The translations under genes were made by a program, and so were the position numbers. Shown one piece after another: positions 2,354 to 43,386 of a stretch of 50,339 nucleotides of DNA (position 1 is its first letter; every line of letters begins with the position of its first letter). The stretch lies in contig JAKBHL010000005.1 of the NCBI GenBank assembly GCA_021836725.1, positions 1 to 50,339 on the forward strand. Reading direction: 5' to 3'. This DNA comes from a bacterium (GTDB taxonomy: Bacteria; Patescibacteriota; Minisyncoccia; Phycocordibacterales; Phycocordibacteraceae). A model generated the notes under the pieces. It saw nothing but the letters and a program-made list of their open reading frames with translations, searched no databases and had not been told where the DNA came from.

Positions 2354-4834
2354 ATGGCGCGCGGGAAGGAAGATAAGGAAAACAATGCGGCGGCATCAGC
2401 CGCTTCCGCGAATATCATCGATCAGCCGATCGTCGCGGAGATGCGCGCCTCGTATCTCGATTATGCGATGTCGGTCATTACGAGCCGCGCGCTTCCGGAT
2501 GTGCGCGACGGGCTGAAGCCCGTGCACCGCCGCATCCTCTATGCGATGAAGGACATGGGGCTCGTTCCCGGGGGGAAATTCAGAAAGAGCGCCACCGTGG
2601 TCGGCGAAGTGCTCGGCAAATACCATCCGCACGGCGACACCGCCGTCTATGACTCGATGGCAAAGATGGCCCAGGAATTCTCGTATCGTTACCCGCTCGT
2701 CCTCGGCCAGGGTAACTTCGGTTCGGTCGACGGCGACTCGCCCGCAGCCATGCGGTACACCGAAGCGAAGATGTCGCGCATCGCCGAAGCGCTCCTCCAG
2801 GATCTTGAGAAAGAGACCGTTGCGTGGAATCCGAACTACGACGCGACGCGCGAAGAACCGAACGTCCTCCCTGCGGCGCTTCCGAACCTGCTCTTGAACG
2901 GCACTCTCGGCATCGCGGTCGGGATGGCGACTAGCATCCCGCCGCACAATCTGCGCGAGGTCGTCGCGGCGACCATCCATCTCATTGATAATCCGGGCGC
3001 TACCACCGACGATTTGCTCGCATTTGTAAAAGGCCCCGATTTCCCCCTCGGCGGCGTCGCTTTCGGCCAGACGGATATCAAACACGCGTATGGTTCGGGC
3101 CGGGGGCCGGTGGTGGTGCGCGGCGAGGCGGAGATCGTCGACGACGGAAAGAAAGACACGCGCATCATCATCACCTCGATCCCGTATCGCGTGAACAAGA
3201 GCGAGCTCATCGCCCGTATCGCGGAGTTGGTGCAGGAAAAGAAGCTTGAGGGCATCCGCGACCTGCGCGACGAATCGACGAGCGATGTCCGCGTGGTGGT
3301 CGAATTGAAGGGAACGGCGCACCCGCAAGCGGTCCTCAACGCCCTCTATAAGCACACCGAGCTCGAAAGCACGTTCCACTACAACATGCTCGCCCTGGTC
3401 GACGGCGTGCCGGAAATGCTCTCGCTTTCGGCCATGTTGGAACAATTCGTGGAGCACCGCCGCGTCGTGGTGAAACGTCGTACCGAATTCGATCTGCGGA
3501 AAGCGCAGGAACGCGAGCACATCCTCCTCGGGCTCTCCAAAGCGCTCGATCACATCGACGAAGTCATCGCTATCATAAAAAAAGCCCCGGATGTCTCAAG
3601 CGCGGATAGCGCTTTGCGTAGCACGTTCGGCTTCTCGCAGTTGCAGACGGCCGCCATCCTCGCGATGCGGCTTCAGACGCTCGCCGGTCTCGAACGCAAG
3701 AAGATAGAAGACGAACTCACCGAGATCCAAGCACTCATCAAAAAGCTCGAGGACATCCTTTCTTCGGCGAAAAAGATCCTTACGGTGGTGAAGAAAGAAC
3801 TCACGGAACTCGCCGAGAAGTACGGCGATGACCGCCGCACCAGAATCGTAAAGGGCGGCGTGCAGAACATTTCAGTGGAAGACCTCGTGCCGGACGAGGA
3901 GTCGATGCTCCTTCTCACGCAGGGCGGTTACGTGAAGCGGACGAATCCGAGCGAATACAAGAGCCAGAAACGCGGCGGCGTCGGCGTCGTCGATATCGCG
4001 ACGAAAGAAGAAGATGTCGTTACGCACTTCCTCGTCACGAGCGCGCATAGCGACCTCCTCTTTTTTACCGATTTCGGGAAAGCATACCAGCTCAAGATGT
4101 ACGAGCTGCCGGAGGGGAAGCGCGCGACCAAAGGCAAAAGCATCATGAATTTCCTCCCGCTCGCGCTCGAAGAGAAAGTGACTTCCATCTTGCCCGTGCC
4201 AAAGGGCGCGGCGCTCGATGCCTCGTCGGTCATCTTTGTGACGGAAGCCGGCGTCGTGAAGCGGGTAGCGGCGAAAGCGTTCGCCGACGTGCGCCGCTCG
4301 GGCATCATCGCCATCAATCTGAAGGATGGCGACAAGCTCGTTTCAGCCAATCATGCGACCGAAGAGGACACGGTATCTCTCGTGACGGCGAAAGGCCAGT
4401 CGATCCGCTTTGCGGTCGAAGACGTGCGGGAAATGGGCCGCACCGCCGGCGGCGTGAAGGGCATGAATGTGAAAAAAGGCGATCGCGTGGTCTCGGCGGA
4501 GGTCATTTCCGAGCTCCATGCGCAGGACGCTTCGCTCCTCGTCATCATGAGCAAGGGCTACGGTAAGCGCACGAAGATTTCAGAATATAAAATCCAAGGC
4601 CGCGGCGGTTCGGGCGTGAAAACCGCGGCAGTAACGCCGAAAACGGGCGAAATCATCGGAGCAAAAATCGTCGTTGGCGACCTGAAAGAAGAAGAGCTCG
4701 TGGTTATTTCAAAGAAAGGACAGGTCATACGGACTTCGGTTGCCGAAATCTCTCTGCTTTCGCGCGCGACTCAGGGCGTCCGCGTCATGCGCCTCTACGA
4801 AGGCGACTCAATCGCCTCGATGGCGGCACTGTAG
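2354..4834 (+). CDS. gyrA: DNA gyrase subunit A
   Basis: [39 protein letters not shown] (catalytic Tyr), GyrA-box QKRGGVG and C-terminal pinwheel repeats. Confidence 0.97.
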
Positions 4835-4964
4835 AACCCATTTCAAAACCCCCGCTCGGGTGTACGACAGAAAGGAGTACGCCGTCTTTTTGTACTCAAA
4901 AAGCGGCTCGTACTCGCGCCGCCGCGCTCCGTAAGCCTCTTTCTGCCGCACACCCTTCGCGGGG
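4832..4964. repeat. Dispersed structured element, copy 1
   Basis: TAGAACCC...CCCCGCTCGGGTGTACGACAGAAAGGAG[core]CTCTTTCTGCCGCACACCCTTCGCGGGG; homologous to copies at 13488 (reverse), 33602 and 43213; begins at the gyrA TAG. Confidence 0.9.
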
Positions 4965-4985
4965 AGATTGAGTCTTGAGCTGGGG

Positions 4986-5012
4986 ATCTCCTAAGATGTC
5001 ATCTTAGGAGAT
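4986..5012. repeat. Short perfect palindrome with 3-nt loop
   Basis: ATCTCCTAAGAT-GTC-ATCTTAGGAGAT, 12-bp stem; a variant lies at 43353-43371. Confidence 0.7.
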
Positions 5013-5076
5013 TGAAGCTCCCGCTCGTGTTGATTGCGCGGCCCGGAGCGTTCCGCGTGTGGTATTTTGTCTGTAC

Positions 5077-5613
5077 ATGAGCACTCATTTCAGTGACCCG
5101 CGGGAGAACGTGCTACAGCTTGGATTGCATGAGGGGATGAAAGTCGGCGATTTTGGCGCCGGATCGGGCCACTATGCGCGTGCAGCAGCAGCCATCGTGG
5201 GGTCGAGCGGGAAAGTGTACGCGATCGATGTGCAGGAAGACGTGCTCAAGCACCTGAAACTGAACCTGCCCGAACGGTATCAGGGCATCGTCGACACGCT
5301 CTGGGGCGATATCGAGAAACCGCTCGGTACGCACCTGCGCGAGGCGTCGCTTGATGCCGCTATCCTCGCCAACACCTTCTTCCAGATCGAGAATCGTTTC
5401 GGTTTCTTGAACGAGCTCAAGCGCGTGCTTAAGCCCGACGGCAAGCTCATGCTTGTCGACTGGGCGGGCAGTTACGGCGGTATGGGCCCCGCAAGCGAAC
5501 GAGTCGTACCCGAACACGAGGCCGAGGAATTTTTTATCAAAGGCGGCCTCCACAAGGTAAAATCCTTTCGTGCCGGTCCGCACCACTACGGCATTATTTT
5601 TACCGCTCCGTAA
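5077..5613 (+). CDS. Class I SAM-dependent methyltransferase
   Basis: VGDFGAGSG motif I, VYAIDV, RVLKPDGKLMLVDW. Confidence 0.85.
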   Translation: MSTHFSDPRENVLQLGLHEGMKVGDFGAGSGHYARAAAAIVGSSGKVYAIDVQEDVLKHLKLNLPERYQGIVDTLWGDIEKPLGTHLREASLDAAILANTFFQIENRFGFLNELKRVLKPDGKLMLVDWAGSYGGMGPASERVVPEHEAEEFFIKGGLHKVKSFRAGPHHYGIIFTAP

Positions 5614-5616
5614 TCT

Positions 5617-6921
5617 ATGAAAATCTCACTCTTTCAAGGCATTCTCTTCAGCGTCTTCGGTCTTGGCGCGCTCATCGGCCTCTTCGTTTTCTCGACGTAC
5701 ACGAATACCGGCAGTAACAAGAGCGCCGTCGGCACGGTCGTCATCTGGGGCACGCTCCCGAAAGATGAGCTGCACTCGGTCCTTACCGCCATGACGCAGA
5801 CCACCACAAGCCTGAAAGACGTCTCGTACGTGCAGAAAAATCCGGCGACGCTACCGTCTGATCTGGCTGCCGCCATAGCAACGGGCGCGGCGCCGGACCT
5901 CGTCCTCGCTTCGCAGGAGGATCTCCACACGCTCTCGAAATTCATCGCTCCGCTGCCGCCCTCGACGCTTTCGGCAAGCACCTTCTTGAACACGTTTGTC
6001 GCCGAGGGAGGGCTTTTTGCGGCGCCGAACGGCGGCTACTACGGCATACCGTTTCTCGTCGACCCGCTCGTACTCTTTTCAAATCAATCCATCCTTTCCT
6101 CCGACGCTATCGCGAACCCGCCTGCGACGTGGGACGCGCTCATGGGACTCGTGCCGAAGGTCGCGCAGCTGACGCCGTCGCAGCAGATCACTCGCGGCCT
6201 TATCGCGCTTGGCACCTATGACAACGTCCATGATGCGCGCGGGATACTTTCCGCGCTCTTTCTCCAGGCCGGCGTGCCGCTCTCCAGATACTCCTCCGGT
6301 GGCGCTCTCGTCGCCGACCTCGGCGAGAGCAGTTCGAATACCGTCCCGCCCGGGCAATCGGTCGTCGGTTTCTACACGCAATTTGCCGACCCCTCGAAAG
6401 TTTCCTATACCTGGAACGCCTCTCTGCCGGATTCTCAGCAGATGTTTCTCGCGGGGAATCTCGCGCTCTACCTCGGCTACGCTTCCGAAGCGCAGTACCT
6501 GCAGGCGGCAAACCCGAACCTCAATTTTGAGGTCACCCCGCTGCCACAGCCGGCGACCGCTTCGACGAAAGTCACGTACGGCCTCGTCTACGCGTTCATG
6601 ATCCCGCGCGGCGCGAAGAATCCCGCGGGCGCCTATCAAGCCGCCTCGCTTCTGACCGGCTCCTCCGCACAGGCCGCCGCCGCTCTCGCGACCGGACTCG
6701 CGCCGGCAGTGCGCAGCGACCTCGCATCCGCGCCTGCCAATCCCATTGCCGCCGTAGCGTATGACGAGGCGCTCTATGCCGAGGGGTGGCTGTCCCCAGC
6801 ACCCGCCGACACCAACCGGGTTTTCTCGAGTATGATTAACGACGTGATAAGCGGCCGCTCAACTCTGGATACCGCGCTCGTTTCCGCCGCGAGCACGTTA
6901 AGCTCGCTCCTACAGAAATGA
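5617..6921 (+). CDS. Extracellular solute-binding protein (sugar-binding type), N-terminally anchored
   Basis: N-terminal TM helix, VVIWG, APDLV, YGIPFLVDPLVLFSN, PPATWD, FLAGNLALY. Confidence 0.75.
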   Translation: MKISLFQGILFSVFGLGALIGLFVFSTYTNTGSNKSAVGTVVIWGTLPKDELHSVLTAMTQTTTSLKDVSYVQKNPATLPSDLAAAIATGAAPDLVLASQEDLHTLSKFIAPLPPSTLSASTFLNTFVAEGGLFAAPNGGYYGIPFLVDPLVLFSNQSILSSDAIANPPATWDALMGLVPKVAQLTPSQQITRGLIALGTYDNVHDARGILSALFLQAGVPLSRYSSGGALVADLGESSSNTVPPGQSVVGFYTQFADPSKVSYTWNASLPDSQQMFLAGNLALYLGYASEAQYLQAANPNLNFEVTPLPQPATASTKVTYGLVYAFMIPRGAKNPAGAYQAASLLTGSSAQAAAALATGLAPAVRSDLASAPANPIAAVAYDEALYAEGWLSPAPADTNRVFSSMINDVISGRSTLDTALVSAASTLSSLLQK

Positions 6922-7469
6922 CCATGCGCCCTTTCATCCTCGCCGCATTCGCCCTCTTTGCCCTCACGCTCGCGCCTGCGGCGCTCGCGCAAACCGTACT
7001 ACCTCCTCCGGGCGGCTCTTGCCACTCCGATAGCGATTGCCCGCCGTGGCATTTTTGTAGTTCTATTACCAAGACCTGTACCCCGGATTCGGTCCAAACA
7101 ACCCCCTCTCCAACACAATCGACCGGAAACGGGACTCCGACTCAATCAACCGGAAACTCGTCAAATCCCTCTACCTCCGGTTCCGGCCAGAACACGACTC
7201 TCATCAATCCGCTTGGCGCGGGTACGAGCCTTCCGGTCCTTCTGAAAGACATCTTGCAACTCATCGTGCAGGTCGGCACCGTTGTCATCGTCCTCATGCT
7301 GGTGTACGTCGGTTTCCTCTTCGTGACGGCGCGCGGGGAGCCGGGCAAGATTACGGCCGCGCGCACGGCGCTCCTGTGGACGGTCGTCGGCGCCCTGATC
7401 CTTCTTGGAGCGCAGGCGATATCGCTTGGCATCCAGTCCACGGTGCAGGCGCTCTCGACCGGCCCTTAG
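6918..7469 (+). CDS. VirB2/TrbC-like pilin 1 with Cys-rich module and T/S/P linker
   Basis: Signal peptide, CHSDSDCPPWHFC...C, two PTQSTGN repeats, LINPLG, two TM helices joined by TARGEPGKITAARTALLWTVVG. Confidence 0.75.
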   Translation: MTMRPFILAAFALFALTLAPAALAQTVLPPPGGSCHSDSDCPPWHFCSSITKTCTPDSVQTTPSPTQSTGNGTPTQSTGNSSNPSTSGSGQNTTLINPLGAGTSLPVLLKDILQLIVQVGTVVIVLMLVYVGFLFVTARGEPGKITAARTALLWTVVGALILLGAQAISLGIQSTVQALSTGP

Positions 7470-7470
7470 T

Positions 7471-7734
7471 ATGACCTTCGCTCAATTTGTCGGCAGCGGC
7501 ACCACCGGCATCATCGGCGCTCTGAACACCGTCGTCGTGCCGTTCATTTTCGCGCTCGCCTTCGCCTCATTCATCTGGGGCGTCGCGAATTATTTTTTTC
7601 TTCATGGCGGGGAAGACAAGAGCCGCGAAGAAGGGAAGCAATTCATCCTGTGGGGCATCCTCGGCATGGTGGTGCTCTTTTCCGTCTGGGGGCTGGTGAA
7701 TATGCTGTTATCCACGCTCGGCATCGCGCCCTGA
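7471..7734 (+). CDS. VirB2/TrbC-like pilin 2
   Basis: PFIFALAFASFIWGV...GGEDKSREEGKQFILWGILGMVVLFSVWGLV hairpin motif. Confidence 0.75.
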   Translation: MTFAQFVGSGTTGIIGALNTVVVPFIFALAFASFIWGVANYFFLHGGEDKSREEGKQFILWGILGMVVLFSVWGLVNMLLSTLGIAP

Positions 7735-7759
7735 GCATAACGTGTCATACTTACCCTAT

Positions 7760-8203
7760 ATGAAATCCATCACCCGCCTCGCTTCCGCGCTCGTTGTCCT
7801 CATCGCGCTCGTTCTCCCGTCCGCGGCCTTTGCGTACACGTCTCTCTATTCGGGCCCGGGCGGTTTCGGGTTCAGCAACGGCCATTTCTCGATCGCGTTC
7901 GGGTCGGGCGCCATGTGCGGCAATACTGTCTGCCAGGTCGCGACCACCATCCTCTATCTCATCAATTCGGTCTTAGTACCGCTCCTCTTCGCTATCGCTT
8001 TCATCATGTTCCTCTACGGAGTCGCTAGGGCGTATATTTTTTCCGGCGGTGATGCCGCGAAGAGAGAGGAAGGCCATAAGCTCATCCTCTGGGGCATCAT
8101 CGGTTTCGTCGTGATGGTATCGCTCTGGGGCCTCGTCAACATCGTTGCAAACACGTTCGGGCTCGCGGGCTACGGCGCACCACCGTTGCCGACATCGTAT
8201 TAG
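7760..8203 (+). CDS. VirB2/TrbC-like pilin 3
   Basis: Signal peptide (AFA), PLLFAIAFIMFLYGV...KREEGHKLILWGIIGFVVMVSLWGLV. Confidence 0.75.
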   Translation: MKSITRLASALVVLIALVLPSAAFAYTSLYSGPGGFGFSNGHFSIAFGSGAMCGNTVCQVATTILYLINSVLVPLLFAIAFIMFLYGVARAYIFSGGDAAKREEGHKLILWGIIGFVVMVSLWGLVNIVANTFGLAGYGAPPLPTSY

Positions 8204-8214
8204 CAAAAACTACC

Positions 8215-8514
8215 ATGGGTGGCATCAACACATCATATTTGCAGGGTTACGCGAGCAGCGTCATCGGCATCATCAACGGCCTCTTCGTGCCGGTGCTCAT
8301 CTCCATCGCCTTCATTACGTTCCTTTGGGGCGTCTACAAGTACTTTATCGCCGGCGCGGCGAGCGATACCGAGCGCGAAGAGGGTCGGAAATTCATCCTC
8401 TGGGGCATCATCGGTTTCGTCGTCATCTTCTCCGTCTGGGGACTCGTCGGAATTGTCGGCAGCACGCTCGGCCTTTCGCCGGGCGGCGGTCCGCCTTCCT
8501 ACCCGACACTCTAA
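8215..8514 (+). CDS. VirB2/TrbC-like pilin 4
   Basis: PVLISIAFITFLWGV...EREEGRKFILWGIIGFVVIFSVWGLV. Confidence 0.75.
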   Translation: MGGINTSYLQGYASSVIGIINGLFVPVLISIAFITFLWGVYKYFIAGAASDTEREEGRKFILWGIIGFVVIFSVWGLVGIVGSTLGLSPGGGPPSYPTL

Positions 8515-8542
8515 TGCTATCCACACACATCGCCGCAGGATA

Positions 8543-8570
8543 TTGACCGGAGCCGCAGGAAAGTTACAAT
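8543..8570 (+). promoter_or_regulatory. Sigma70-like promoter upstream of pilin 5
   Basis: TTGACC-16 nt-TACAAT; GCCGCAGGA direct repeats at 8532-8540 and 8552-8560. Confidence 0.55.
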
Positions 8571-8596
8571 TACCCCGTTATTCCTTTATCTATCCT

Positions 8597-8971
8597 ATGA
8601 AAAAAGCCCTTGCTTTCACCGCCCTCACGCTCTCCGTTTTCGCGCCACTCGTTTCTTTCGCCGCCATCAACAATGTTTCAGACGTCGGTTCGCTCATCAT
8701 CAATACGATCAATAACGTCGTCGTACCGGTTCTTTTCGCCATCGCATTCATCGTCTTCCTCTGGGGCGCGTTCAATGCTTTCATCCTCGGCGCCAATTCC
8801 GATGATGTGAAGGAGAAGGGCAAGAACCTCATGCTCTGGGGCCTTATCGGCTTCTTCGTGATGGTCTCGATCTGGGGCCTCGTGAACATCCTCACCGGCA
8901 CCATCAGCTTCGGCAACAACACAGGACCGACCGGCGGCACGCCGAAGGCGGGCGTCCAGATCGGCGGCTAA
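8597..8971 (+). CDS. VirB2/TrbC-like pilin 5
   Basis: Signal peptide MKKALAF...SFA, PVLFAIAFIVFLWGA...KEKGKNLMLWGLIGFFVMVSIWGLV. Confidence 0.75.
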   Translation: MKKALAFTALTLSVFAPLVSFAAINNVSDVGSLIINTINNVVVPVLFAIAFIVFLWGAFNAFILGANSDDVKEKGKNLMLWGLIGFFVMVSIWGLVNILTGTISFGNNTGPTGGTPKAGVQIGG

Positions 8972-8983
8972 CCCTCCCGTTTC

Positions 8984-9244
8984 GTGAACGCATTCCTCGC
9001 GAGGGTCGTCACGCAGGTTATCAATCCGATTATCCTGCTTCTGGCCGCCGGCGCATTCGTGGTGTTCCTGTGGGGCGTGTTTGAGTTCATCGTACACGCA
9101 GGTGACGAGACGAAACGCAAAGAGGGCAGGAACGGTATCTTTTGGGGCCTCATCGGCCTGGTAATCATCTTCGGCGCATACGGCATCATTAATACGGTGC
9201 TCAATACGTTCAACCTGCCGCCGATCCAAAAAATCTCGCAATAA
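8984..9244 (+). CDS. VirB2/TrbC-like pilin 6
   Basis: GTG start; INPIILLLAAGAFVVFLWGV...AGDETKRKEGRNGIFWGLIG. Confidence 0.72.
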   Translation: MNAFLARVVTQVINPIILLLAAGAFVVFLWGVFEFIVHAGDETKRKEGRNGIFWGLIGLVIIFGAYGIINTVLNTFNLPPIQKISQ

Positions 9245-9279
9245 TAAATAATGGAAGACGGTGAGGAGGGGAAATAAAA

Positions 9280-9305
9280 AAGGCCGCACATTGCTGTGCG
9301 GCCTT
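9280..9305 (-). terminator. Intrinsic terminator for the SPFH operon, possibly bidirectional
   Basis: AAGGCCGCACA-TTGC-TGTGCGGCCTT preceded by an A-run on the + strand (U-tail on the - strand). Confidence 0.75.
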
Positions 9306-9335
9306 CGCCCAAAGAACATCCGGAGTACGTCGAAA

Positions 9336-10091
9336 CTACTTTTCACCGGCTCGAGCATACGCGTAAGAGGCAAGCAGAGGAACATCGCTGTCATTGTGTG
9401 CGTACGATCCGACGATGTTTCCGTCAGAGCAAGGATCGCTCGGATCGCCGACGGTACCGATGTGCCCGTTTGCGTACACGCAACGGACGGTGAATCCGCT
9501 TCCGCCCCACACGACATGGCCTTGGTCAAGACCGCGCACAAGGACCGAATCGCCATGAGCAGGAACTTTTACCGTCGGCCATTTTGACTGATCAAGGTGC
9601 CATGCCCGTGGCAGGTTCGGCGTATCTCGCGGGAAGGGTCGGTTGAATCCTTCTCGTGAGGCGTGCAGGGCCGTTGTGATTCCGAGCCCGCTTGCGACCC
9701 ACATTCCTACCGGAAAACCGACGAAGAGCATGAACATCACTCTCGTCAGCGCCTTCTGGAGCGTCTTTTTCGTCGGCTCCTTCTTGACGGTGAGTTCGAT
9801 GACAAGCCACGCAATGGCCAAGAAGACGAGGAGTGGAAGCCAGTGATGCCAGCTCCAGCTCCCCACATCGCTCGGACGCGGGATCAGGGAAGTGTAAAAT
9901 CCCCAATAGGCCACGACTGCGAGAGAGACAACCACGACCAATCCGATAAAGAGCGGTCGAGTGAATATTCCCCGAAGCCCCGCAATTCGCGTCCCCACTC
10001 CTCCTGTCTTGATTTTGGGAGACGCGACAGCCAGGACTACGAACACCAAGGAAACTACCAGACCCGCAATCGCCCACGCGAAGTTATTCAT
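9336..10091 (-). CDS. Multi-pass membrane protein, hypothetical
   Basis: About 4 TM helices plus a soluble C-terminal domain; AAGGAG SD; 8-nt overlap with the SPFH gene end. Confidence 0.65.
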   Translation of the reverse strand: MNNFAWAIAGLVVSLVFVVLAVASPKIKTGGVGTRIAGLRGIFTRPLFIGLVVVVSLAVVAYWGFYTSLIPRPSDVGSWSWHHWLPLLVFLAIAWLVIELTVKKEPTKKTLQKALTRVMFMLFVGFPVGMWVASGLGITTALHASREGFNRPFPRDTPNLPRAWHLDQSKWPTVKVPAHGDSVLVRGLDQGHVVWGGSGFTVRCVYANGHIGTVGDPSDPCSDGNIVGSYAHNDSDVPLLASYAYARAGEK

Positions 10092-11004
10092 GGCCGTCTC
10101 CTTCTTTTCCGTTTCCGCCCAAGTTGATGTTGCCAAGAATGCCCTTCAAACCTTCTCCGACGAGCACCATTTGCGGTTGTATCTTCGGGAGAGTGTCGAG
10201 ACTGCGCAGAGTCCTATACATCTCCCAAGCCTTGTCGAGGGAGGTATCAAGACCGGTCTGAACCGCCAAAATTGGCTTCCAGTAACCGACCGCCTCAGCT
10301 TCTAGTTCGGATGCCAGTTTTTCACCTTCGAGTTTTTTCAGTCGCAGATCTATCACCGATTGCGGCAATTCAATGTCCTCGATGACGAGGCGTCCTTTGT
10401 CACTTGGGACGTACGCTCCGATTTCCGCCAGTCCCGGTTCGACGATTTCCATCGTCTCCTCGGCGATGTTACCGCGTCCCTTGCTTGCCGCGTCAATGTC
10501 TAGTGCCTGCAGACGCGGACGCAGTGCGCCATCGACAAGAGCGTACACCCTATCTTCAGGTTTTTCGTACTTGTAAACCCACAGCTTGACCGCTTCGGTG
10601 AGCTTCTCCCAGTTTTCACTTCCCACGACCGCATCTTCGGGTTTACCGATCCGATACCAGAACTTCACCACGACCGGTGCTGAAGCACCATCCGCGAAGT
10701 CAATGTCCGTCTTACGTTCATCGGCGTACAGCTGGTACTCTTTCCCGCGCATATCGCTGATTCCTCTGCGAATTCGGTCGACACCGATGACTCGGACGTT
10801 CCATCCACGGAAATAAACGGTTTGATATTTGCCAAGCCGTTCGATGACCGCGTACTGCTGTTGCTCCAAGATGATCGTTCCCTGGAAAATGCAGAACCCG
10901 ATCCAAGCGAATGCAAGACCGAATCCCATTCCCCAGAGGCCAAGAGCATTGCAGACGACGATTGCTACGGCCGCAGGGCCGCCCCAGATGATTGTCCGCC
11001 ACAT
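10084..11004 (-). CDS. SPFH/Band-7 domain membrane protein
   Basis: TM helices, then QQQYAVIERLGKY...GWN, LVIEDIELPQSV and a coiled tail; AGGAG SD. Confidence 0.8.
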   Translation of the reverse strand: MWRTIIWGGPAAVAIVVCNALGLWGMGFGLAFAWIGFCIFQGTIILEQQQYAVIERLGKYQTVYFRGWNVRVIGVDRIRRGISDMRGKEYQLYADERKTDIDFADGASAPVVVKFWYRIGKPEDAVVGSENWEKLTEAVKLWVYKYEKPEDRVYALVDGALRPRLQALDIDAASKGRGNIAEETMEIVEPGLAEIGAYVPSDKGRLVIEDIELPQSVIDLRLKKLEGEKLASELEAEAVGYWKPILAVQTGLDTSLDKAWEMYRTLRSLDTLPKIQPQMVLVGEGLKGILGNINLGGNGKEGDGHE

Positions 11005-11053
11005 GATGTTTCTCCTCGTATTGAGCAGTGCAAAGGCCTGCTTTCCGCACTCC

Positions 11054-11081
11054 ATGATACAGAAAACTGAAGAAAAGTCAA
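11054..11081 (-). promoter_or_regulatory. Sigma70-like promoter for the SPFH operon
   Basis: TTGACT-16 nt-TATCAT on the - strand, directly after the tRNA-Leu 3' end. Confidence 0.55.
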
Positions 11082-11082
11082 G

Positions 11083-11164
11083 TGCTGGGGGAGAGACTCG
11101 AACTCTCATCCCGTGAGGGGCCAGATCCTAAGTCTGGTGCGTCTACCAGTTTCGCCACCCCAGC
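11083..11164 (-). tRNA. tRNA-Leu(TAG)
   Basis: GCTGGGG acceptor stem, CCAGA-CTTAGGA-TCTGG anticodon arm, long variable arm, GTTCGAGTC. Confidence 0.95.
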
Positions 11165-11288
11165 ATGTTGAAACAATACTATGGTCTGCTATATTTTTCC
11201 TAACGCGCCTATATCTTCGAAGACTCGATGTAGGCGGCCCGTTCGGAGCAACAATCCGAACGAGGGTGTTCGTTCCTTGTCCTCACTC

Positions 11289-11361
11289 GCGCCTATAGCT
11301 CAGTTGGTAGAGCAGCTCCCTCTTAAGGAGACGGTCCCTGGTTCGAGCCCAGGTAGGCGCA
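11289..11361 (+). tRNA. tRNA-Lys(CTT)
   Basis: GCGCCTA-TAGCTCAGTTGGTAGAGC, loop CTCTTAA, GGTTCGAGCCC, TAGGCGC-A. Confidence 0.95.
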
Positions 11362-11466
11362 CCGAAACGTACCGCGCATAGAGAGTCCTGTTCAAGACAC
11401 AAACAAACTTGAATATCGTGCGTACTAATGAATGCCTGGCGCATTTATCCGTTTATCCACACACTT

Positions 11467-12123
11467 ATGGCATCACACGCACGAAAAATTATCGTTATCG
11501 GCGCCGCAGGGGTCGCGCTCGCGGCCGCGGGAGTACTGCCCTCCTACGTATTTGCGGCATCGGAGTCGCCGACGCATATCTCCTCGGCAATTCATCGCCG
11601 CTTGAGGTTCGAGCATTTTGGGACGGTATCGGCAGTGGCCGATTCTTCCATCACGCTCGCTACGAAAAAGGGTACGACCCTCACAGTTGACGTGCAGAAT
11701 GCGAAGATCATGAAAGCTGGCGCCACCGTTCCGCTCGCCACGGTAGCGGTCGGCGATCCGATTGCCGTCCTTGGCCCGGCGCACGGGACTACCATCGATG
11801 CGCGTACCGTGTTCGATAAGCCCACCGCTCGACTCGAGCACCGGCTTGAACGCCGATGGGAGCGTCATCACGGCGCTGTCATCGGCGGGACGATAGCGAC
11901 GATTTCTTCCGGGGAATTTACGCTCGTACCCAAAAGTCATCCCGGCCGCCCGGCTCGGCCGTCGGTCATGATCGATACGAATGCAACGACCGTCGTAACG
12001 CACGCAGGCCAGCCGGTGCCTTTTAGCGCGCTTGGAGTCAACTCCGAAGTGATCGTATCCGGCACGCGCGAAGCGAAGGGCACGCTCATCGCCAGCAAGA
12101 TCATCATCCGTAATCGCCAGTAA
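11467..12123 (+). CDS. Secreted protein with two OB-fold-like repeats (DUF5666-like)
   Basis: Signal peptide; two repeats of the form G-T-V/I-x-x-V/I...T-L...(V/L)-x-V-(G/N)-(D/S)-x-(I/V)-x-V-x-G...A-x-x-(V/I). Confidence 0.6.
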   Translation: MASHARKIIVIGAAGVALAAAGVLPSYVFAASESPTHISSAIHRRLRFEHFGTVSAVADSSITLATKKGTTLTVDVQNAKIMKAGATVPLATVAVGDPIAVLGPAHGTTIDARTVFDKPTARLEHRLERRWERHHGAVIGGTIATISSGEFTLVPKSHPGRPARPSVMIDTNATTVVTHAGQPVPFSALGVNSEVIVSGTREAKGTLIASKIIIRNRQ

Positions 12124-12150
12124 TTCGCGATTCGATAATCGGTTTGCGGT

Positions 12151-13032
12151 TTAAGCGAGCACACCCTCATGTACGCGTGAGGGTGTGCTCGCTTCCGCCG
12201 CATATGTACTGGTGTACTGCGCGAACCGCGCTATCAGATCGCGCGTGAGGGGGCCGGGCGCTCCGGAACCGATGGCACGTCCGTCAACCGAGACGATGGG
12301 CACGATGTCCTTGAAGGATGATGTGATGAACGCTTCATCGGCGTCGAAAAACGCGGAAAGCGGCACCGCTTGCTCGAGCGTCCGATACGCTTCGTGTGCG
12401 CGTTCAAGCACGACTTTTCTCGTGATGCCCTTGAGCACGTCGACATCCGGCGTGATGACAGTACCGTTCTTCACCATGAAGACATTGCTCGTTGCGCACT
12501 CCAGCACCCGATCGCCGCTTGTGTAGAGGATCTCGATTGCGCCGGCGGCTTTCCGTTTTTCTTGGAGCATGACCGCCGTGATGTAGTGGATAGACTTCAC
12601 TTCCGGCATAAAGCGCTGGTACTCGTGCGTGATGAGGGAAGCGCCGCGCTCGTACAGTTCCGGAGGCAGGGAAGCGTGCGGCGCGGCGGTTATGAAAAAC
12701 GTCTCCCGTCCGGGTACGTGTTCAAGGCCGCCGAGAGCTTCTCCGCCGGTGAGAAGCATGCGAAGGCTCGCCCGTGTTCCGTCCGTGTTGCGCCCGATAA
12801 GCGTACGCATGGCGTTTCTCGCCTCGTCTTTCGTGCAGGGGATGACAAGCCCGAGCGTATTCGCAGACCTCTGGAACCGCTCCCAATGGTCATCGAAACG
12901 AAACGGTTCTCCGGAAAAAGAAGTGAGTCCTTCATAGATGCCGAATCCGCGCAAAATTCCGAGATCAAGTACGCCGACTTTCGCCTCGCCAAGCGGCAAG
13001 AGCGCACCATTGAGGTAACAGAGCGGAGTCAT
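12151..13032 (-). CDS. Aminotransferase class IV (branched-chain/D-amino-acid type)
   Basis: DLGILRGFGIYEGL, HWERF, PLP Lys in EVKSIHY, ECATSNVF, LKGITR, ADEAFITSS. Confidence 0.88.
   Translation of the reverse strand: MTPLCYLNGALLPLGEAKVGVLDLGILRGFGIYEGLTSFSGEPFRFDDHWERFQRSANTLGLVIPCTKDEARNAMRTLIGRNTDGTRASLRMLLTGGEALGGLEHVPGRETFFITAAPHASLPPELYERGASLITHEYQRFMPEVKSIHYITAVMLQEKRKAAGAIEILYTSGDRVLECATSNVFMVKNGTVITPDVDVLKGITRKVVLERAHEAYRTLEQAVPLSAFFDADEAFITSSFKDIVPIVSVDGRAIGSGAPGPLTRDLIARFAQYTSTYAAEASTPSRVHEGVLA
12153..12194. terminator. 17-bp hairpin between convergent genes, inside the aminotransferase 3' end
   Basis: AAGCGAGCACACCCTCA-TGTACGCG-TGAGGGTGTGCTCGCTT. Confidence 0.6.
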
Positions 13033-13121
13033 CGTTGCCAGCAACTATACCAATAATATCGGGGATAATGAACAGGGAGCGGCAGCCATTGCTGTGTGGG
13101 ATGATATAGTAGAGGAGCCTT

Positions 13122-13490
13122 ATGGAATCGAATACTGTCATCGAGACGGAGAATCCTAAAAATCCGTCCGTAATTCCCGATTGTCTCGCGAGCGCCGTGC
13201 GCCATGCGTCCGCAGACGATGACCGAGACGCCCGCCTGCGCGTCCACCTTGAAAGCGGCGATTATTTTTCATTCCTCGCCACGATCTTCGGCTTCGTCGA
13301 AGATATTTGCGTCGAACATGAGCGGAAAAGTTATGCCACAGCGCCGATGACTTCCGAGGCCTTGCAAAAGCTCCGCAGCGACCTCATCTATCTCCAGCAC
13401 CACTACCATATTTCAAAAAATAAAACGTCCGCGCCAGACGCATTGCTCGACAGGACCGCAGTGTGCAATCACACACTCCGACAAACGTAG
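13122..13490 (+). CDS. Hypothetical protein
   Basis: 122-aa ORF with GAGGAG SD; its TAG stop is the first 3 nt of repeat copy 2. Confidence 0.6.
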   Translation: MESNTVIETENPKNPSVIPDCLASAVRHASADDDRDARLRVHLESGDYFSFLATIFGFVEDICVEHERKSYATAPMTSEALQKLRSDLIYLQHHYHISKNKTSAPDALLDRTAVCNHTLRQT

Positions 13491-13644
13491 AACCCTTTTA
13501 GAACTCCCGCTTCCCCGCGAGGTGTGTGCGGCAGAAAGAGGCTTACGGAGCGCGACGGCGTAAGTTCGAGCCGCTTTTAGAGCAGAAAAAGACGGCGTAC
13601 TCCTTTCTGTCGCATACCCGAGCGGGGGGTTGAGATGGGTTCTA
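13488..13644. repeat. Dispersed structured element, copy 2 (inverted orientation)
   Basis: Reverse complement matches copies 1, 3 and 4; bounded by TAGAACCC (13488) and GGGTTCTA (13637-13644). Confidence 0.9.
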
Positions 13645-13653
13645 GAAAGAAAG

Positions 13654-13742: not shown

Positions 13743-13823
13743 GCACACCCTTAGTTCTACCACAACGGGATTCCCGCTGCGCAAGTTATGCTCGCGCGCG
13801 CCCGCTTCTTTGCAGTTCAGATA

Positions 13824-13898: not shown

Positions 13899-13912
13899 GT
13901 TCTCTGATGATA

Positions 13913-16915: not shown

Positions 16916-16930
16916 CATTATATATAGACC

Positions 16931-20402: not shown

Positions 20403-20501
20403 GCGGCCCGGCGATTTTTGAGTACGGCGTATTTTCCTGCTGGAAAATCGCCTCGCCCTCGGCTCGTCAGCCTGCGGGAGCCTCAAAAATCGCCGGGCCG
20501 C
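20403..20501. repeat. Diverged fifth member of the structured-element family (same 65-nt core, different perfect 20-bp closing stem)
   Basis: GCGGCCCGGCGATTTTTGAG...CTCAAAAATCGCCGGGCCGC enclosing TACG-GCG-T-ATTTTC-C-TGCT-G-GAAAAT-CGC-CTCG-CCC-TC-GGC-TCGTCA-GCC-TGC-GGG-AGC. Confidence 0.8.
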
Positions 20502-32709: not shown

Positions 32710-33604
32710 GCGGCTCTCAGCGCGGCGGCGCAAGCGCCGCCGCCGCGCATTCATCGCGCTTTGCGCGCTCGTCTTCCTTTTCCTCGGTGCCCTTGTGTAC
32801 GGACTGCAGCAGCCGGGCGTCCGCATTTCACATATCGAGGTCTATGGCGTCGATGCGTCGGCCGCGTCGATAGCGAACGAAGCGATGCGGGGAAGCTATT
32901 TCGGCATCATTCCGCGCAATTCGACTTTTTTCCCGCCCACCGCGCTCATACGCGCAGACCTGCTTGCCGCATATCCCGGGGTAGCCGCAGTATCGATTTT
33001 CAGGAACGGATTTACCGGACTCTCGATCAAGGCAGATCCCCGCACGCCGCTCGCGCGCTGGTGCGGTTCCGCTTCGGCGTCGTCCTCGCCGGAAGATTCG
33101 CCTTTGAAGGAAGTACTACCGGCGGCATCCGGCGATTGCTATCTCTTTGACCCGAGCGGCTTCGTGTATGCGACCGCGACCGAAGCATTTCCTTTCTCGG
33201 GAACCGCTTCATCCTCTTCCGTCGGCGCCGGATCAAATCCGGACCAAACGCTCGTACCGTATGTTCTTTTTGATCCGCTTGCTTCTCCCGCAACCTCGCC
33301 GGTGGGCGCAACGCTCAAAAACGCAAGCCAATTGTCCAGGGTTTTTGATTTTGCGCAGCAAATAGGATTGCTCGGCCCTTCGGTCGGGACCATCGTCATC
33401 CGCGGTCCCGAGGTCGATTTTTTCCTCGCGACTTCCACATACGGCGCTCCCGCCGGATTGCGTATCACCTATCTTCTCGGCGATGAACAGAATGCTCTGA
33501 CCGCGCTCGTTTCCGCAAAAAGCCAGCTTGATCTTTCCGATCCGACTCTCGAATACGTCGATTTGCGTTTTAGCGGAAGGATCTATCTTAAAAAACGGAG
33601 CTAG
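32672..33604 (+). CDS. FtsQ/DivIB-like cell division protein
   Basis: Basic N-terminus, one TM helix, POTRA-like ISHIEVYG, C-terminal EYVDLRFSGRIYLK. Confidence 0.65.
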   Translation: MSERALSAKRGGERLSARRRKRRRRAFIALCALVFLFLGALVYGLQQPGVRISHIEVYGVDASAASIANEAMRGSYFGIIPRNSTFFPPTALIRADLLAAYPGVAAVSIFRNGFTGLSIKADPRTPLARWCGSASASSSPEDSPLKEVLPAASGDCYLFDPSGFVYATATEAFPFSGTASSSSVGAGSNPDQTLVPYVLFDPLASPATSPVGATLKNASQLSRVFDFAQQIGLLGPSVGTIVIRGPEVDFFLATSTYGAPAGLRITYLLGDEQNALTALVSAKSQLDLSDPTLEYVDLRFSGRIYLKKRS

Positions 33605-33741
33605 AATCCATTTCAAACCCCCATTTCCCCGCTCGGGTATGCGACAGAAAGGAGTACGCTGTCTTTTTCTGCTGAAAAAGCAGCTCGTACTCGCGTCGTC
33701 ACGCTCCGTAAGCCTCTTTCTGCCGCATACCTGAGCGGGGG
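33602..33741. repeat. Dispersed structured element, copy 3
   Basis: TAGAATCC...CCCCGCTCGGGTATGCGACAGAAAGGAG[core]CTCTTTCTGCCGCATACCTGAGCGGGG; begins at the TAG of the ftsQ-like gene. Confidence 0.9.
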
Positions 33742-41655: not shown

Positions 41656-41694
41656 TTCTCTTTCGAAGAGTTGCGCTATACTTGCAACCTTGGT

Positions 41695-42843
41695 ATGCGT
41701 TTCCGGATCCTCTTTCTTCTTCTTGCGTGCTTGATTTCTGCGCCCCTTGCGCACGCGCAGACGCCGGGGCAGCAGGCAACCACCAGCAACACCAGCGTCA
41801 TAGAAAAGGCGCGCGTGCTTACCGTGGAGAGTTCGGAAATAAAAAATATTCCCGGCACGAACAATTCCGCGACCTACCAGACGCTTTCAGCGCTCGTCCT
41901 CTCCGGCGTCGATGCGGGAAAGATCGTCACAGTGGAAAACGATTACCTCGCGATGAAATCGGGAGATGTGTTTTTTCTTACTCATACGACTAATGCACAA
42001 GAAGGTCTGAATGCATACACGGTCCTCGAACCGGACCGGTTGCCCGCGCTCAGGGATCTTTTCATCCTCTTCGTGCTTTCTGTCGTGCTTATCGGCGGTT
42101 GGACGGGACTGCGCGGCCTTGTGGCGCTCGGCGTGAGCATCTTGCTCGTGCTCTACGCGCTTCTGCCCGGCATAGCCGCCGGTTACAACCCGATTCTCGT
42201 GGCATCCGGCGTCGCCGCGATCATCGTCATCTTCGGCTCCTATCTGACGCACGGGATCAATCGCACGACGAGCGCGGCGGTGCTCGGGCTCGTGGCGACG
42301 GTCGGCATCACCGCGCTCATCGCGCATTTCGCCATCAGCGCGACACAGCTTTCGGGTGTCACCGGGGAAGGCACGGTCGATCTGAGTTTCGCGACAAGCG
42401 GGCACATCGACTTGATCGGCCTTCTGCTCGGCGGGATGCTCATCGGCGCGCTCGGCATCCTCTACGATGCGGCGATAAGCCAGGCGGTTGCCGTGGACGA
42501 GCTCTTGCGCGCAGCGCCAGGAATGGGAGCGCGGCGGCTTTTCACGCGCGCGATGCGCATCGGCCGCGAACACATCGGTGCGCTCGTGAACACGCTCGCG
42601 CTCGCATACGTCGGCGTGGCGCTGCCGCTTCTCCTCCTGTTCCAATCCCAGTCCTATGGCGGCCAATCTTTCCTGCACACCATCAATCACGAGCTTTTCG
42701 CGACGGAAATCGTGCGGGCGCTCGTCGGATCGCTCGGGATCATATTCGCCGTGCCGATTTCGACGATTGCCGCGATCATCCTCCTGACACACGTTCCGCC
42801 CAAAGACGGCGATACGGACGGGTCTGCGCACACCCATGCGTGA
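41695..42843 (+). CDS. YibE/F family membrane protein
   Basis: GMLIGALGILYD, IGREHIGALVNTLALAYVG, EIVRALVGSLG. Confidence 0.88.
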   Translation: MRFRILFLLLACLISAPLAHAQTPGQQATTSNTSVIEKARVLTVESSEIKNIPGTNNSATYQTLSALVLSGVDAGKIVTVENDYLAMKSGDVFFLTHTTNAQEGLNAYTVLEPDRLPALRDLFILFVLSVVLIGGWTGLRGLVALGVSILLVLYALLPGIAAGYNPILVASGVAAIIVIFGSYLTHGINRTTSAAVLGLVATVGITALIAHFAISATQLSGVTGEGTVDLSFATSGHIDLIGLLLGGMLIGALGILYDAAISQAVAVDELLRAAPGMGARRLFTRAMRIGREHIGALVNTLALAYVGVALPLLLLFQSQSYGGQSFLHTINHELFATEIVRALVGSLGIIFAVPISTIAAIILLTHVPPKDGDTDGSAHTHA

Positions 42844-42879
42844 GATTGCGGCAGCGAAGGGGTGCTAGAATAAGACCGT

Positions 42880-43215
42880 ATGAAACTCATTTTCCACTGG
42901 CTCATTGCGACGCTCGCGATCCTGATCGCGGCATACATCGTTCCGGGCGTCACCATAACGCTCGTCGGCGCGCTCATCGCCGCCGTCGTCCTCGGCGCGC
43001 TCAACCTCCTTGTCCGTCCCATCCTTCTCATCCTGACGCTTCCGATCACCATCGTGACGCTCGGTCTTTTTTCTCTCGTGATCAACGCGCTTCTCGTCAT
43101 GCTCGCGGCCGTGCTCGTGCCGGGATTCTCAGTCGCCGGTTTTTGGACCGCATTCCTTTTCGCACTCGTGCTTGCCGTCGTGAACTGGGTCTTCCATCTC
43201 TGGAACCGCAGCTAG
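42880..43215 (+). CDS. YvlD-like 4-TM membrane protein (phage holin 4_2 family)
   Basis: LNLLVRPILLILTLPITIVTLGLFSLVINA, VPGFSVAGFWTA. Confidence 0.85.
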   Translation: MKLIFHWLIATLAILIAAYIVPGVTITLVGALIAAVVLGALNLLVRPILLILTLPITIVTLGLFSLVINALLVMLAAVLVPGFSVAGFWTAFLFALVLAVVNWVFHLWNRS

Positions 43216-43386
43216 AATCCCACCCCGCTCGGGGTATGTGACAGAAAGGAGTACGCCGTCTTTTTCTGCTCTAAAAGCGGCTCGAACTTACGCCGTCGCG
43301 CTCCGTAAGCCTCTTTCTGCCACATATCCTCTCGCGGGGTTCGATTTCCTAACCTAAAATGACATTTTGGGGAACGAGGGGTTCTA
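43213..43386. repeat. Dispersed structured element, copy 4
   Basis: TAGAATCC...[stem and core]...GGGTTCTA; the left TAG is the YvlD-like stop and the right CTA is the dedA stop; contains CCTAAAAT-GAC-ATTTTGGG at 43353-43371. Confidence 0.9.

What the first reader, a model, noticed from the sequence alone, without database searches (positions are those of the whole stretch)
4832..43386. Family of structured intergenic elements that start exactly at TAG stop codons (MITE/REP-like)
Seen: four homologous 130-175 bp copies (4832-4964, 13488-13644 inverted, 33602-33741, 43213-43386). Each has a long closing stem (CCCCGCTCGGGTATGCGACAGAAAG...CTTTCTGCCGCATACC..GCGGGG) around a 65-nt core. Copies 2 and 4 have terminal inverted repeats TAGAA(C/T)CC...GGGTTCTA. 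In all four, the first TAG is the stop codon of the upstream gene (gyrA, the 13122 ORF, ftsQ-like, YvlD-like), and the far end of copy 4 is also the dedA stop. Closing-stem changes are compensatory (ATGCG/CGCAT vs ATGTG/CACAT; GGTAT/ATACC vs GGTGT/ACACC). Known: ERIC and Correia elements are TA-flanked MITEs that sit next to coding sequences and alter mRNA processing. Inference: a non-autonomous element targeting (C)TAG/TA that survives at stop codons and may act as a 3' UTR processing or termination module. No transposase is present in the window.
Basis: partly seen in the sequence, partly recalled or inferred. Interest (0 to 1): 0.85.

Follow-up and report, generated by a model that had tools for sequence, protein, structure and literature searches.

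The report
Stop-codon-hugging MITE with conserved hairpin core
A small non-coding jumping element has multiplied to about fifty copies in this tiny bacterial genome, often ending exactly on a gene's stop codon, and it joins the ends of a widespread IS5-type transposon to an undescribed folded core shared by related bacteria.

Summary
The four copies are real, and the window holds a fifth, diverged one at 20403-20501. The 616-kb genome has about 50 loci.

The scan noted this family four times before on other pieces of this genome.

New here:
- **Ends.** The 18-bp inverted ends (TAGAACYCATYTCAAAAC) also bound 920-bp autonomous elements. These encode a two-frame IS5-family transposase of IS427-group type. 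The same ends flank small palindromic elements in many phyla. No such transposase is in this genome.
- **Core.** The ~60-nt core is a three-way junction. It occurs in 84 of 150 genomes of the genus and 56 of 150 of the order, but only 2 of 150 sampled across the phylum. Covariation is strong, and no Rfam family matches.
- **Strand.** G-U and A-C mismatches are about equally common, so no RNA strand is favoured.
- **Stop codons.** 21 of 44 elements end on a stop codon. That is far above a random-TA null, but not significantly above a YTAR-target null.

Verdict: a MITE of a known kind carrying an undescribed module. An RNA role is untested.

The parts
4832..5013 (+). Copy 1. The left inverted end is at 4832-4849 and its TAG is the gyrA stop codon. 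The three-way-junction core lies at about 4864-4948. No recognisable right end.
   Evidence: left end matches 18 of 18; model R1 hit at 4864-4948; gyrA.
4990..5008 (.). Nested small hairpin of a second repeat family (CCTAAGATGWCATCTTAGG). The same hairpin flanks the genome's only Y1 (RAYT-like) transposase gene.
13488..13644 (-). Copy 2, full length (157 bp) with both inverted ends. Its right end (13488-13490 on the plus strand) is the TAG of ORF 13122-13490. tRNA-Leu lies 9 bases beyond its left end.
20403..20501 (+). Fifth, diverged copy of the old type. It has the three-way core with its own closing stem and no IS-type inverted ends. It starts 10 bases after the TAG of ORF 17714-20392.
   Evidence: R1 score 101.5 bits at 20409-20494.
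33602..33741 (+). Copy 3. The TAG of its left inverted end is the stop of ORF 32672-33604. The right end is missing. Three relatives have only 2-22 bases of spacer at this junction.
43213..43386 (+). Copy 4. Its shortened left end carries the TAG stop of the holin-like gene 42880-43215. The right-end remnant GGGGTTCTA carries the stop of the DedA/VTT gene 43384-44070 on the minus strand.
   Evidence: (R1 hit at 43237-43323).
43353..43371 (.). Degenerate nested hairpin of the second repeat family (3 mismatches). It accounts for the extra length of copy 4.

Best explanation

**Outer part.** A pair of 18-bp inverted ends, TA|GAACYCATYTCAAAAC, of an IS5-family insertion sequence of the IS427-group type. 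That transposase is made from two overlapping frames. It would act in trans, cut at the ends, and insert the element at TA inside a pyrimidine-TA-purine site, duplicating the TA.

**Inner part.** A long hairpin whose tip is a ~60-nt three-way junction. This is an older module shared by this bacterial order.

**Why it sits on stop codons.** Each end reads TAG inward. Insertion into the TA of a TAA or TAG stop codon therefore leaves a stop in place. In a genome that is about 93% open reading frame by the mechanical ORF call, such sites are among the few tolerated targets. That is why about half of the copies sit exactly on stop codons, in either orientation.

**History.** The burst to about 50 copies is specific to this lineage, and the transposase is no longer in the genome.

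**Shown:** the repeat family, the shared ends with autonomous IS5-type elements, one empty site in relatives, the TA/YTAR ends, and the covarying core.

**Inferred:** trans-mobilisation, TA duplication (as opposed to TA being part of the end), and any role for the core.
For: Copy number:
- 50 loci by nhmmer and 51 by covariance model in the 616-kb genome.
- 47 of 48 matches to the inverted-end motif lie inside these loci.

Same ends on autonomous elements:
- L243 (921 bp) and L233 (920 bp) carry the same 18-bp ends.
- Each encodes DUF4096 plus DDE_Tnp_1/DDE_Tnp_1_2 in two overlapping frames, and hits NF033580, an IS5-family transposase model.
- L250 is a 593-bp deletion derivative.
- In the same genus, G134 holds an 845-bp element with ends TAGAACCAGTCTCAAAA and flanking TA.
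- PMC3281130 (passages and Table 2 read) gives IS427-group elements as 832-865 bp, with 13-21 bp inverted repeats, mostly 2-bp duplications, and two overlapping frames.

Paired ends 84-277 bp apart occur in 28 of the 80 scanned loci, from many phyla. Of the 24 I printed, three carry the three-way core and the other 21 have different palindromic interiors.

Ends and targets:
- The terminal triplet is TAG at 33 and TAA at 10 of 62 recognised ends.
- The outer flank base is a pyrimidine at 50 of 62.

Empty site: the junction at 33602 has 2-22 bases of spacer in G005, G014 and G086, against about 190 in this genome.

Stop codons: 21 of 44 main-family elements, p = 6e-7 against a random tolerated-TA null of 0.157.

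Orientation: the stop codon lies at 8 left ends and 13 right ends.

Copies are decaying: 238 uncompensated against 61 compensated stem changes.

Core:
- Present in 84 of 150 genus genomes and 56 of 150 order genomes.
- 91.8% of cells paired, against 44-52% when partners are slid.
- 33 of 34 pairs show changes on both sides.
Against: - No transposase of this kind, and none of the families DDE_3, rve, TnpB or RVT_1, was found in this 98.9%-complete genome. Mobilisation is therefore historical, or from outside, and is not shown.
- TA duplication cannot be separated from TA being part of the inverted end. The relatives with empty sites are only about 70-80% identical.
- Against a YTAR-restricted null of 0.35, the stop-codon excess is not significant (p = 0.056). 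That null was partly derived from the same ends.
- The same core sits inside elements with other ends and longer flanking direct repeats in other genera: G177 about 7 bp, G210 8-11 bp. The core is therefore not tied to this transposase, and its origin is unexplained.
- Only one locus was checked for an empty site.
Confidence: 0.78

Rival explanations
1. REPIN-like element moved as single-stranded DNA by the genome's RAYT-like Y1 (HUH) transposase. The enzyme would recognise the hairpin, not the inverted ends.
For: - One Y1_Tnp gene, C13:13712-14392, carries an HUH motif.
- Y1_Tnp genes occur in 80 of 150 genomes of the genus.
- They co-occur with the core: 56 both, 28 core only, 24 Y1 only, 42 neither. 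The naive odds ratio is 3.5, and relatedness is not controlled.
- G-U and A-C mismatch counts are alike, which suits a DNA hairpin.
- Hairpins of the family that flanks this gene are nested in 5 of the elements.
Against: - The Y1 gene is flanked by a different, 19-nt hairpin family, not by the element.
- No core lies within 1.5 kb of the ten best Y1 genes of relatives.
- 28 genomes have the core without a Y1 hit.
- The 18-bp ends and TA flanks are those of a DDE-type IS5 element.
Confidence: 0.07
2. The copies are kept mainly because they work in RNA. They would act as a 3' end module (terminator or stabiliser) selected at each gene end, with mobility secondary.
For: - In relatives, the model start lies 5-27 bases after the upstream stop in 22 of 27 sense-oriented hits, most often 11-19.
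- A copy sits 14-18 bases after rpmE, in the same orientation, in six species, and its outer stem covaries.
- Covariation is strong.
- The ends place an A-run before and a T-run after the hairpin on both strands (read).
Against: - Both orientations occur: 8 against 13 ends in this genome, and 17 sense against 13 antisense in relatives.
- There is no excess of G-U over A-C.
- Copies in this genome are decaying.
- The simple terminator scan does not call the copies, though its loop limit of 8 excludes them by design.
Confidence: 0.1
3. A MITE of an IS630/Tc1-mariner-type element, as proposed for other TA-flanked bacterial MITEs.
For: TA ends in a CTAG-like context. That IS630 prefers CTAG and duplicates TA is recalled, not from a call.
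Against: - No DDE_3 gene in the genome.
- The DDE_3 genes of two Lewinellaceae genomes that hold elements with these ends are not flanked by the ends.
- The identical ends bound IS5-type elements.
Confidence: 0.03

Closest known systems
IS427-group insertion sequences of the IS5 family, and MITEs derived from them
   Same: Autonomous elements of 845-921 bp carry the same or nearly the same 18-bp ends. They have two overlapping transposase frames (DUF4096 plus DDE) and TA at both ends. Published IS427-group features match (PMC3281130).
   Different: The copies here have no coding capacity, and their interior is not a deleted transposase gene. It is a separate conserved three-way-junction hairpin. 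The exact IS name is unknown because ISfinder was not available. The best plasmid-borne relatives of the transposase are 44% identical or less.
Correia elements (CREE/NEMIS) of Neisseria
   Same: About 100-160 bp, inverted ends, TA at the ends, intergenic and next to genes, able to form a long hairpin in transcripts. These Correia features are recalled, not from a call.
   Different: The host phylum differs. Here an autonomous partner with the same ends was identified. No promoter, IHF-site or RNase III evidence exists for this element. No sequence comparison with Correia elements was made.
ERIC/IRU repeats of enterobacteria
   Same: Imperfect palindromes of about 127 bp in transcribed intergenic regions, with long forms that carry internal insertions at fixed sites (recalled). 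Here, hairpins are nested at fixed internal sites.
   Different: No sequence relation was tested. ERIC has no known cognate transposase (recalled), whereas this element shares its ends with IS5-type elements.
REPINs and RAYT transposases
   Same: The genome has a RAYT-like Y1 gene flanked by short palindromes, and these palindromes are scattered in the genome.
   Different: Those palindromes are a second, 19-nt family. The 158-bp element does not flank the Y1 gene, and its ends are not small hairpins themselves.
Rickettsia palindromic elements
   Same: Palindromic repeats in a reduced genome that touch coding sequence (recalled).
   Different: Here most copies end at the stop codon and do not lie in frame inside genes.

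Membership tests
MITE (non-autonomous DDE-transposon derivative) | Terminal inverted repeats shared with an autonomous element that encodes a transposase | tested here: met
   The 18-bp ends are the same as on L243 and L233, which encode an IS5-family transposase. A near-identical end occurs on an 845-bp element in genus member G134.
MITE (non-autonomous DDE-transposon derivative) | Small, non-coding, many copies | tested here: met
   The consensus is about 158 bp. There are 50-51 loci in 616 kb.
MITE (non-autonomous DDE-transposon derivative) | Target-site duplication, shown by filled and empty sites | tested here: inconclusive
   TA is present at both ends, and one junction is empty in three relatives. 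Those relatives are too diverged (about 70-80% identity) to show a single TA at the empty site.
IS5 family, IS427 group (as source of the ends) | An element of about 800-1000 bp with two overlapping frames giving a DDE transposase | tested here: met
   for L243 and L233. The published description is in PMC3281130.
IS5 family, IS427 group (as source of the ends) | A transposase of this type present in the same genome | tested here: not met
   No PF01609 hit and no NF033580 hit in the 98.9%-complete genome.
REPIN/RAYT system | The repeat flanks the RAYT gene and consists of short palindromes | tested here: not met
   The Y1 gene is flanked by a different 19-nt hairpin family. No core lies near ten Y1 genes of relatives.
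Any Rfam 15 RNA family | A covariance-model match at or near the gathering score | tested here: not met
   Only tRNAs were found in the window at gathering score. At E up to 5, the only match over an element in five loci that hold it was a miRNA-precursor model (RF03816, 23.3 bits against a gathering score of 114, E = 2) that I read as a generic long-hairpin match.
Structured RNA (functional in one strand) | Covariation with G-U tolerated far more than A-C on the transcribed strand | tested here: not met
   Covariation is strong. G-U against A-C counts are 12/15, 5/2, 27/21 and 2/3 in the four helices, and 68 against 90 within this genome.
Intrinsic terminator | A stable hairpin followed by a U-run, with termination shown | tested here: inconclusive
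   The hairpin is stable, and the ends supply TTTT after it on both strands. The simple scan cannot call loops above 8. No RNA data were available.
Correia / ERIC elements | Sequence relation to the Neisseria or enterobacterial consensus | not tested

The most novel reading that the evidence does not exclude
The three-way-junction hairpin is a functional module in its own right. It could be a single-stranded DNA or RNA structure that insulates transcription in both directions, or the handle of an unknown hairpin-moving enzyme. Bacteria of this order have kept it for a long time, for example after rpmE in six species. Unrelated transposon ends have captured it more than once: IS427-type ends with TA in this genome, ends with about 7-bp duplications in G177, and ends with 8-11-bp direct repeats in G210.
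Probability: 0.3. Interest if true: 0.75.

Novelty: new variant of a known kind. Interest (0 to 1): 0.55.

Why it matters
Ultra-small candidate-phyla-radiation genomes are usually seen as streamlined. Here, roughly 1% of a 616-kb genome is one mobile repeat (my estimate from about 50 copies of about 150 bp).

The way it fits in is instructive. Its ends read as stop codons in both directions, so it can land on the last codon of a gene without changing the protein.

Two wider points follow:
- The same 18-bp ends occur on small palindromic elements across many phyla, so this IS5-type element is an unusually widespread source of MITEs.
- The conserved three-way core matches no Rfam family and none of the papers my searches returned. 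It gives a concrete, testable candidate for a structured DNA or RNA module in bacteria whose gene regulation is almost unknown.

Tried and rejected
- **Rfam.** Searched at gathering score on the window and at E up to 5 on five loci. Nothing useful for the element.
- **Transposase families in the own genome.** DDE_3, DDE_Tnp_1, TnpB-type, rve and RVT_1 gave no hit.
- **DDE_3 in five genomes that hold elements with these ends.** Three genes in two Lewinellaceae genomes, none flanked by the ends.
- **Single exact end matches in Weeksellaceae and Sulfurimonas.** They lie in conserved stretches with the same flanks across genera. I read these as coding sequence and as chance matches. About 70 chance matches are expected for this pattern in the collection (my arithmetic).
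- **Core near Y1 genes of relatives.** None.
- **Papers.**
  - No paper holds any of six spellings of the end motif.
  - 'miniature inverted-repeat' with 'Patescibacteria' gave 2 papers; I saw listings only, and both are off topic.
  - 'Candidate Phyla Radiation' with 'repetitive extragenic palindromic' gave 1 paper; listing only.
  - The MITE / IS5 family / stop codon search listed nothing on this element.
- **RNA runs.** No RNA holder was listed.
- **Laying DNA contigs of four runs on 3000-22999.** This showed depth spikes in several bins, including those with copies 1 and 2, and cross-joins between copies. No contig bridged an empty site, so it says nothing on polymorphism.
- **Simple terminator scan.** It does not call the elements, but its loop limit excludes them.
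- **Longer target duplications in this genome.** I looked by eye at seven full-length copies and found none beyond TA.
- **Supplements.** Supplementary files of papers were not consulted.


Full report
**1. Observation**

They align over a 105-120-nt core at 83-98% identity.

The mechanical ORF list confirms that the outermost TAG of each copy is the stop codon of the upstream frame:
- 2231-4834, gyrA by Pfam;
- 13122-13490;
- 32672-33604;
- 42880-43215, a Phage_holin_4_2/YvlD-like protein.

The far end of copy 4 is the stop of 43384-44070 on the minus strand, a VTT/DedA protein.

Two of these frames have no Pfam hit, so 'ftsQ-like' is unconfirmed. The 13122 frame may not be a gene, because a terminator-like site on the minus strand lies inside its end.

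Copy 2 folds into one long hairpin: RNA -58.9 kcal/mol, z -3.2; DNA -30.5 kcal/mol, z -2.5.

**2. Scale**

The window is contig C1 of a 616,033-base, 16-contig genome that is 98.85% complete.
- blastn, nhmmer and a covariance model find 47, 50 and 51 loci respectively.
- The full-length consensus is 158 bp.
- It has 18-bp inverted ends TAGAACYCATYTCAAAAC / GTTTTGARATGRGTTCTA.
- Inside these is a second long stem, and then a ~60-nt asymmetric core.
- 47 of 48 matches to the end motif lie inside the loci, so the genome has no orphan ends that could bound a larger element.

**3. Ends and stop codons**

Of 62 recognised ends (at least 12 of 18 matches to the motif):
- 33 read TAG and 10 read TAA inward;
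- the base outside is a pyrimidine at 50.

By symmetry this means a pyrimidine-TA-purine context.

The terminal triplet is the in-frame stop of an ORF of at least 60 codons at 8 of 28 left ends and 13 of 34 right ends. Both orientations are therefore used. Counting copy 4 by hand, 21 of 44 main-family elements touch a stop codon.

I tested two null models.
- If insertions survive at any TA outside coding sequence, stop-codon TAs are about 16% of such sites (404 of about 2,570). The excess is then strong, p = 6e-7.
- If the target is YTAR, they are about 35% (180 of about 515). The excess is then not significant, p = 0.056.

A target preference plus survival outside coding sequence may therefore account for the pattern. 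Because the end reads TA|G, insertion into the TA of TAA or TAG restores a stop. This last step is inference from the sequence.

**4. Insertion**

The junction at 33602 was compared with 150 genomes of the genus. In G005, G014 and G086 the two flanking genes are 2-22 bases apart. Here they are about 190 bases apart, with the element between them. This is one locus only, and the relatives are about 70-80% identical. It shows gain in this lineage but not the exact duplication.

**5. Source of the ends**

A scan of one genome per species for the end motif gave 119 stretches. About 70 are expected by chance (my arithmetic), and several are chance matches in what I read as conserved coding sequence.

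In 28 of the first 80 loci, however, a second end lies 84-277 bp away in inverted orientation. These come from:
- Saccharibacteria, Kerfeldbacteria, Taylorbacteria, Niyogibacteria and Minisyncoccia;
- Lewinellaceae, Chloroflexi, Bdellovibrionales, Myxococcales, Nitrospirales, Pirellulales, Solirubrobacterales and others.

Of the 24 I printed, 21 have different palindromic interiors.

Among all 119 loci, two elements of 920-921 bp carry the same ends: L243 from an Acidiferrales assembly and L233 from an Acidobacteriota assembly. Each has two overlapping frames, DUF4096 plus DDE_Tnp_1/DDE_Tnp_1_2, and hits NF033580, an IS5-family transposase model. A 593-bp element (L250) keeps only the end of the transposase gene.

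In the genus of the window, NF033580-type genes occur in 7 of 150 genomes and not in this one. One of them (G134) sits in an 845-bp element with ends TAGAACCAGTCTCAAAA and flanking TA.

These features fit the IS427 group of the IS5 family as described in PMC3281130 (passages and Table 2 read):
- 832-865 bp;
- 13-21-bp inverted repeats;
- mostly 2-bp duplications;
- two overlapping frames with a frameshift motif.

This genome has no DDE_3, DDE_Tnp_1, rve, TnpB-type or RVT_1 hit.

**6. The core**

In relatives only the central ~60 nt is conserved. It forms a three-way junction.
- P1 is a long closing stem of variable sequence.
- P2 is an A/T-rich hairpin with loop UGCU.
- P3 is a GC hairpin with loop CGUC.

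On ten copies that are not of the MITE type:
- 95.3% of cells pair;
- 20 of 34 pairs change on both sides;
- 0 of 500 shuffles reach this;
- slid controls give 39-52%.

A model built from these ten then found all MITE-type copies of this genome, which were not in the seed.

On 52 distinct copies from relatives, aligned to the model and so leaning towards it:
- 91.8% pair;
- 33 of 34 pairs change on both sides.

Distribution of the core:

| Sample (other genomes) | Genomes with a hit | Copies per genome |
|---|---|---|
| Genus, 150 | 84 | 1-9 |
| Order, 150 | 56 | bursts of 10-24 in 11 genomes, including G169, G177, G285, G026 and G238 |
| Phylum-wide, 150 | 2 | not tabulated |

Only 29 candidates per genome were scored in these runs.

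No Rfam family fits.

**7. RNA or DNA?**

Across the four helices, G-U against A-C mismatch counts are 12/15, 5/2, 27/21 and 2/3. Within this genome they are 68 against 90. A structure selected in one RNA strand should tolerate G-U far more than A-C. This symmetry points to a constraint on DNA, or on both strands.

Arm-to-arm copying in palindromes is known from the literature on quasipalindrome correction (recalled, not from a call). It could produce such 'covariation' without RNA.

Orientation relative to neighbouring genes is mixed in relatives: 17 sense and 13 antisense in tandem contexts. When sense, the model start lies 5-27 bases after the stop in 22 of 27 hits, most often 11-19.

One copy lies 14-18 bases after rpmE, in the same orientation, in six species (G000, G005, G017, G083, G129, G153). 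Its inner stem is shared and its outer stem differs with pairing kept. This is the best sign of long retention, and possibly of function.

**8. The core is not tied to one transposon**

- In G177, near-identical copies have other ends (TGAATTACGAAAC...), and three of five show 6-8-bp flanking direct repeats.
- In G210 the ends are CTGTCCGGGG..., and three of five show 7-11-bp direct repeats.
- In G169 the copies share the core, but each has its own perfectly paired stem.
- Of the 24 elements with the IS427-type ends that I printed, only three, all from Patescibacteria assemblies (L204, L219, L225), carry the core.

The element of this window is therefore a chimera of widespread ends and a local core.

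**9. Second repeat family**

The genome has one Y1 (RAYT-like) transposase gene with an HUH motif, at C13:13712-14392. It is flanked by 19-nt hairpins, CCTAAGATGWCATCTTAGG.
- 9 such hairpins were found.
- 5 are nested in the right halves of MITE copies, including 4990-5008 and 43353-43371 in the window.

Y1 genes occur in 80 of 150 genomes of the genus and co-occur with the core (56/28/24/42). The naive odds ratio is 3.5 and relatedness is not controlled. No core lies within 1.5 kb of ten Y1 genes. I read this as a separate REP/RAYT-like system that inserts into the hairpins, not as the mover of the element.

**10. Earlier notes of this scan**

Four earlier notes on other pieces of this genome describe the same family. 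They report the conserved three-way tip, TA duplication, stop-codon location, and one in-frame copy in a pilin leader.

My results agree on the first three, which I tested myself. I did not check the in-frame copy or the reported orientation flips.

New here:
- the identification of the ends with IS5/IS427-type elements;
- the cross-phylum spread of these ends;
- the null models for the stop-codon excess;
- the G-U/A-C test;
- the rpmE orthologues;
- the different ends around the same core in other genera.

**11. Verdict**

This is a MITE of a known kind: IS5-family ends with TA, carrying an undescribed, order-wide structured module. Mobility by a trans-acting IS427-type transposase is the best-supported mechanism but is inferred. 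A role in RNA 3' ends is open, because no RNA run was listed.

Noticed in passing
window 24541-24624 (minus strand): tRNA-Leu(CAA) lies inside the mechanical ORF 24410-25687 on the plus strand. Either that ORF starts further downstream or it is not a gene as listed.
   Followed up: no
window 7622-8931: Four copies of a 124-nt stretch at 60-71% identity, spaced 311-439 nt apart, with a 27-nt subrepeat continuing to 9146. This looks like a tandem array of small paralogous genes.
   Followed up: no
L114:3913-4593 (= G000 C13:13712-14392, minus strand) and its flanks: A RAYT-like Y1 transposase gene flanked on both sides by 19-nt hairpins (CCTAAGATGWCATCTTAGG). Nine such hairpins are in the genome, and five are nested inside MITE copies.
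   Followed up: partly
G000 C8:4615-4792, C8:11451-11627, C14:3552-3768, C15:1559-1740; partial motif next to C12:67618-67645: A third nested element. An AT-rich hairpin of about 45-60 nt is inserted at one fixed point of the core's P3 arm in four copies. A different insert sits near the same point in C14:47856-48065.
   Followed up: no
L115 (G000 C12:9-95 and 97-183): Two core copies lie in direct tandem at the very start of a contig. The assembly may break in a repeat array here.
   Followed up: no
L138-L142 (G177) and L143-L147 (G210): The same three-way core sits inside near-identical elements with other inverted ends. These have flanking direct repeats of 6-8 bp (G177) and 7-11 bp (G210), at a small variable offset from the ends. 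The unusually variable length is unexplained.
   Followed up: partly
L150, L151, L162, L164, L187: Elements with the same IS427-type ends in Saccharibacteria and Bdellovibrionales share a small central hairpin of the form GCGTACC...GGTACGC, although the rest of their interiors differ.
   Followed up: no
L087 (G147 C37), around 1380-1720: A copy of the same MITE type has ends TGAAAC...GTTTCA instead of TAGAAC...GTTCTA. It abuts the 5' end of a pilin-like gene (GFTLIEAM motif), and the gene's start may lie inside the element.
   Followed up: no
window 20347-20369 (minus strand): A canonical terminator-like hairpin with a T-run lies inside the end of ORF 17714-20392, 34 bases before the diverged copy at 20403.
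   Followed up: no
genus-wide: Y1_Tnp genes reach up to 11 matches per genome in these genomes of about 0.4-1.5 Mb. Most are about 210-280 aa and match only the C-terminal two thirds of the Pfam model.
   Followed up: no
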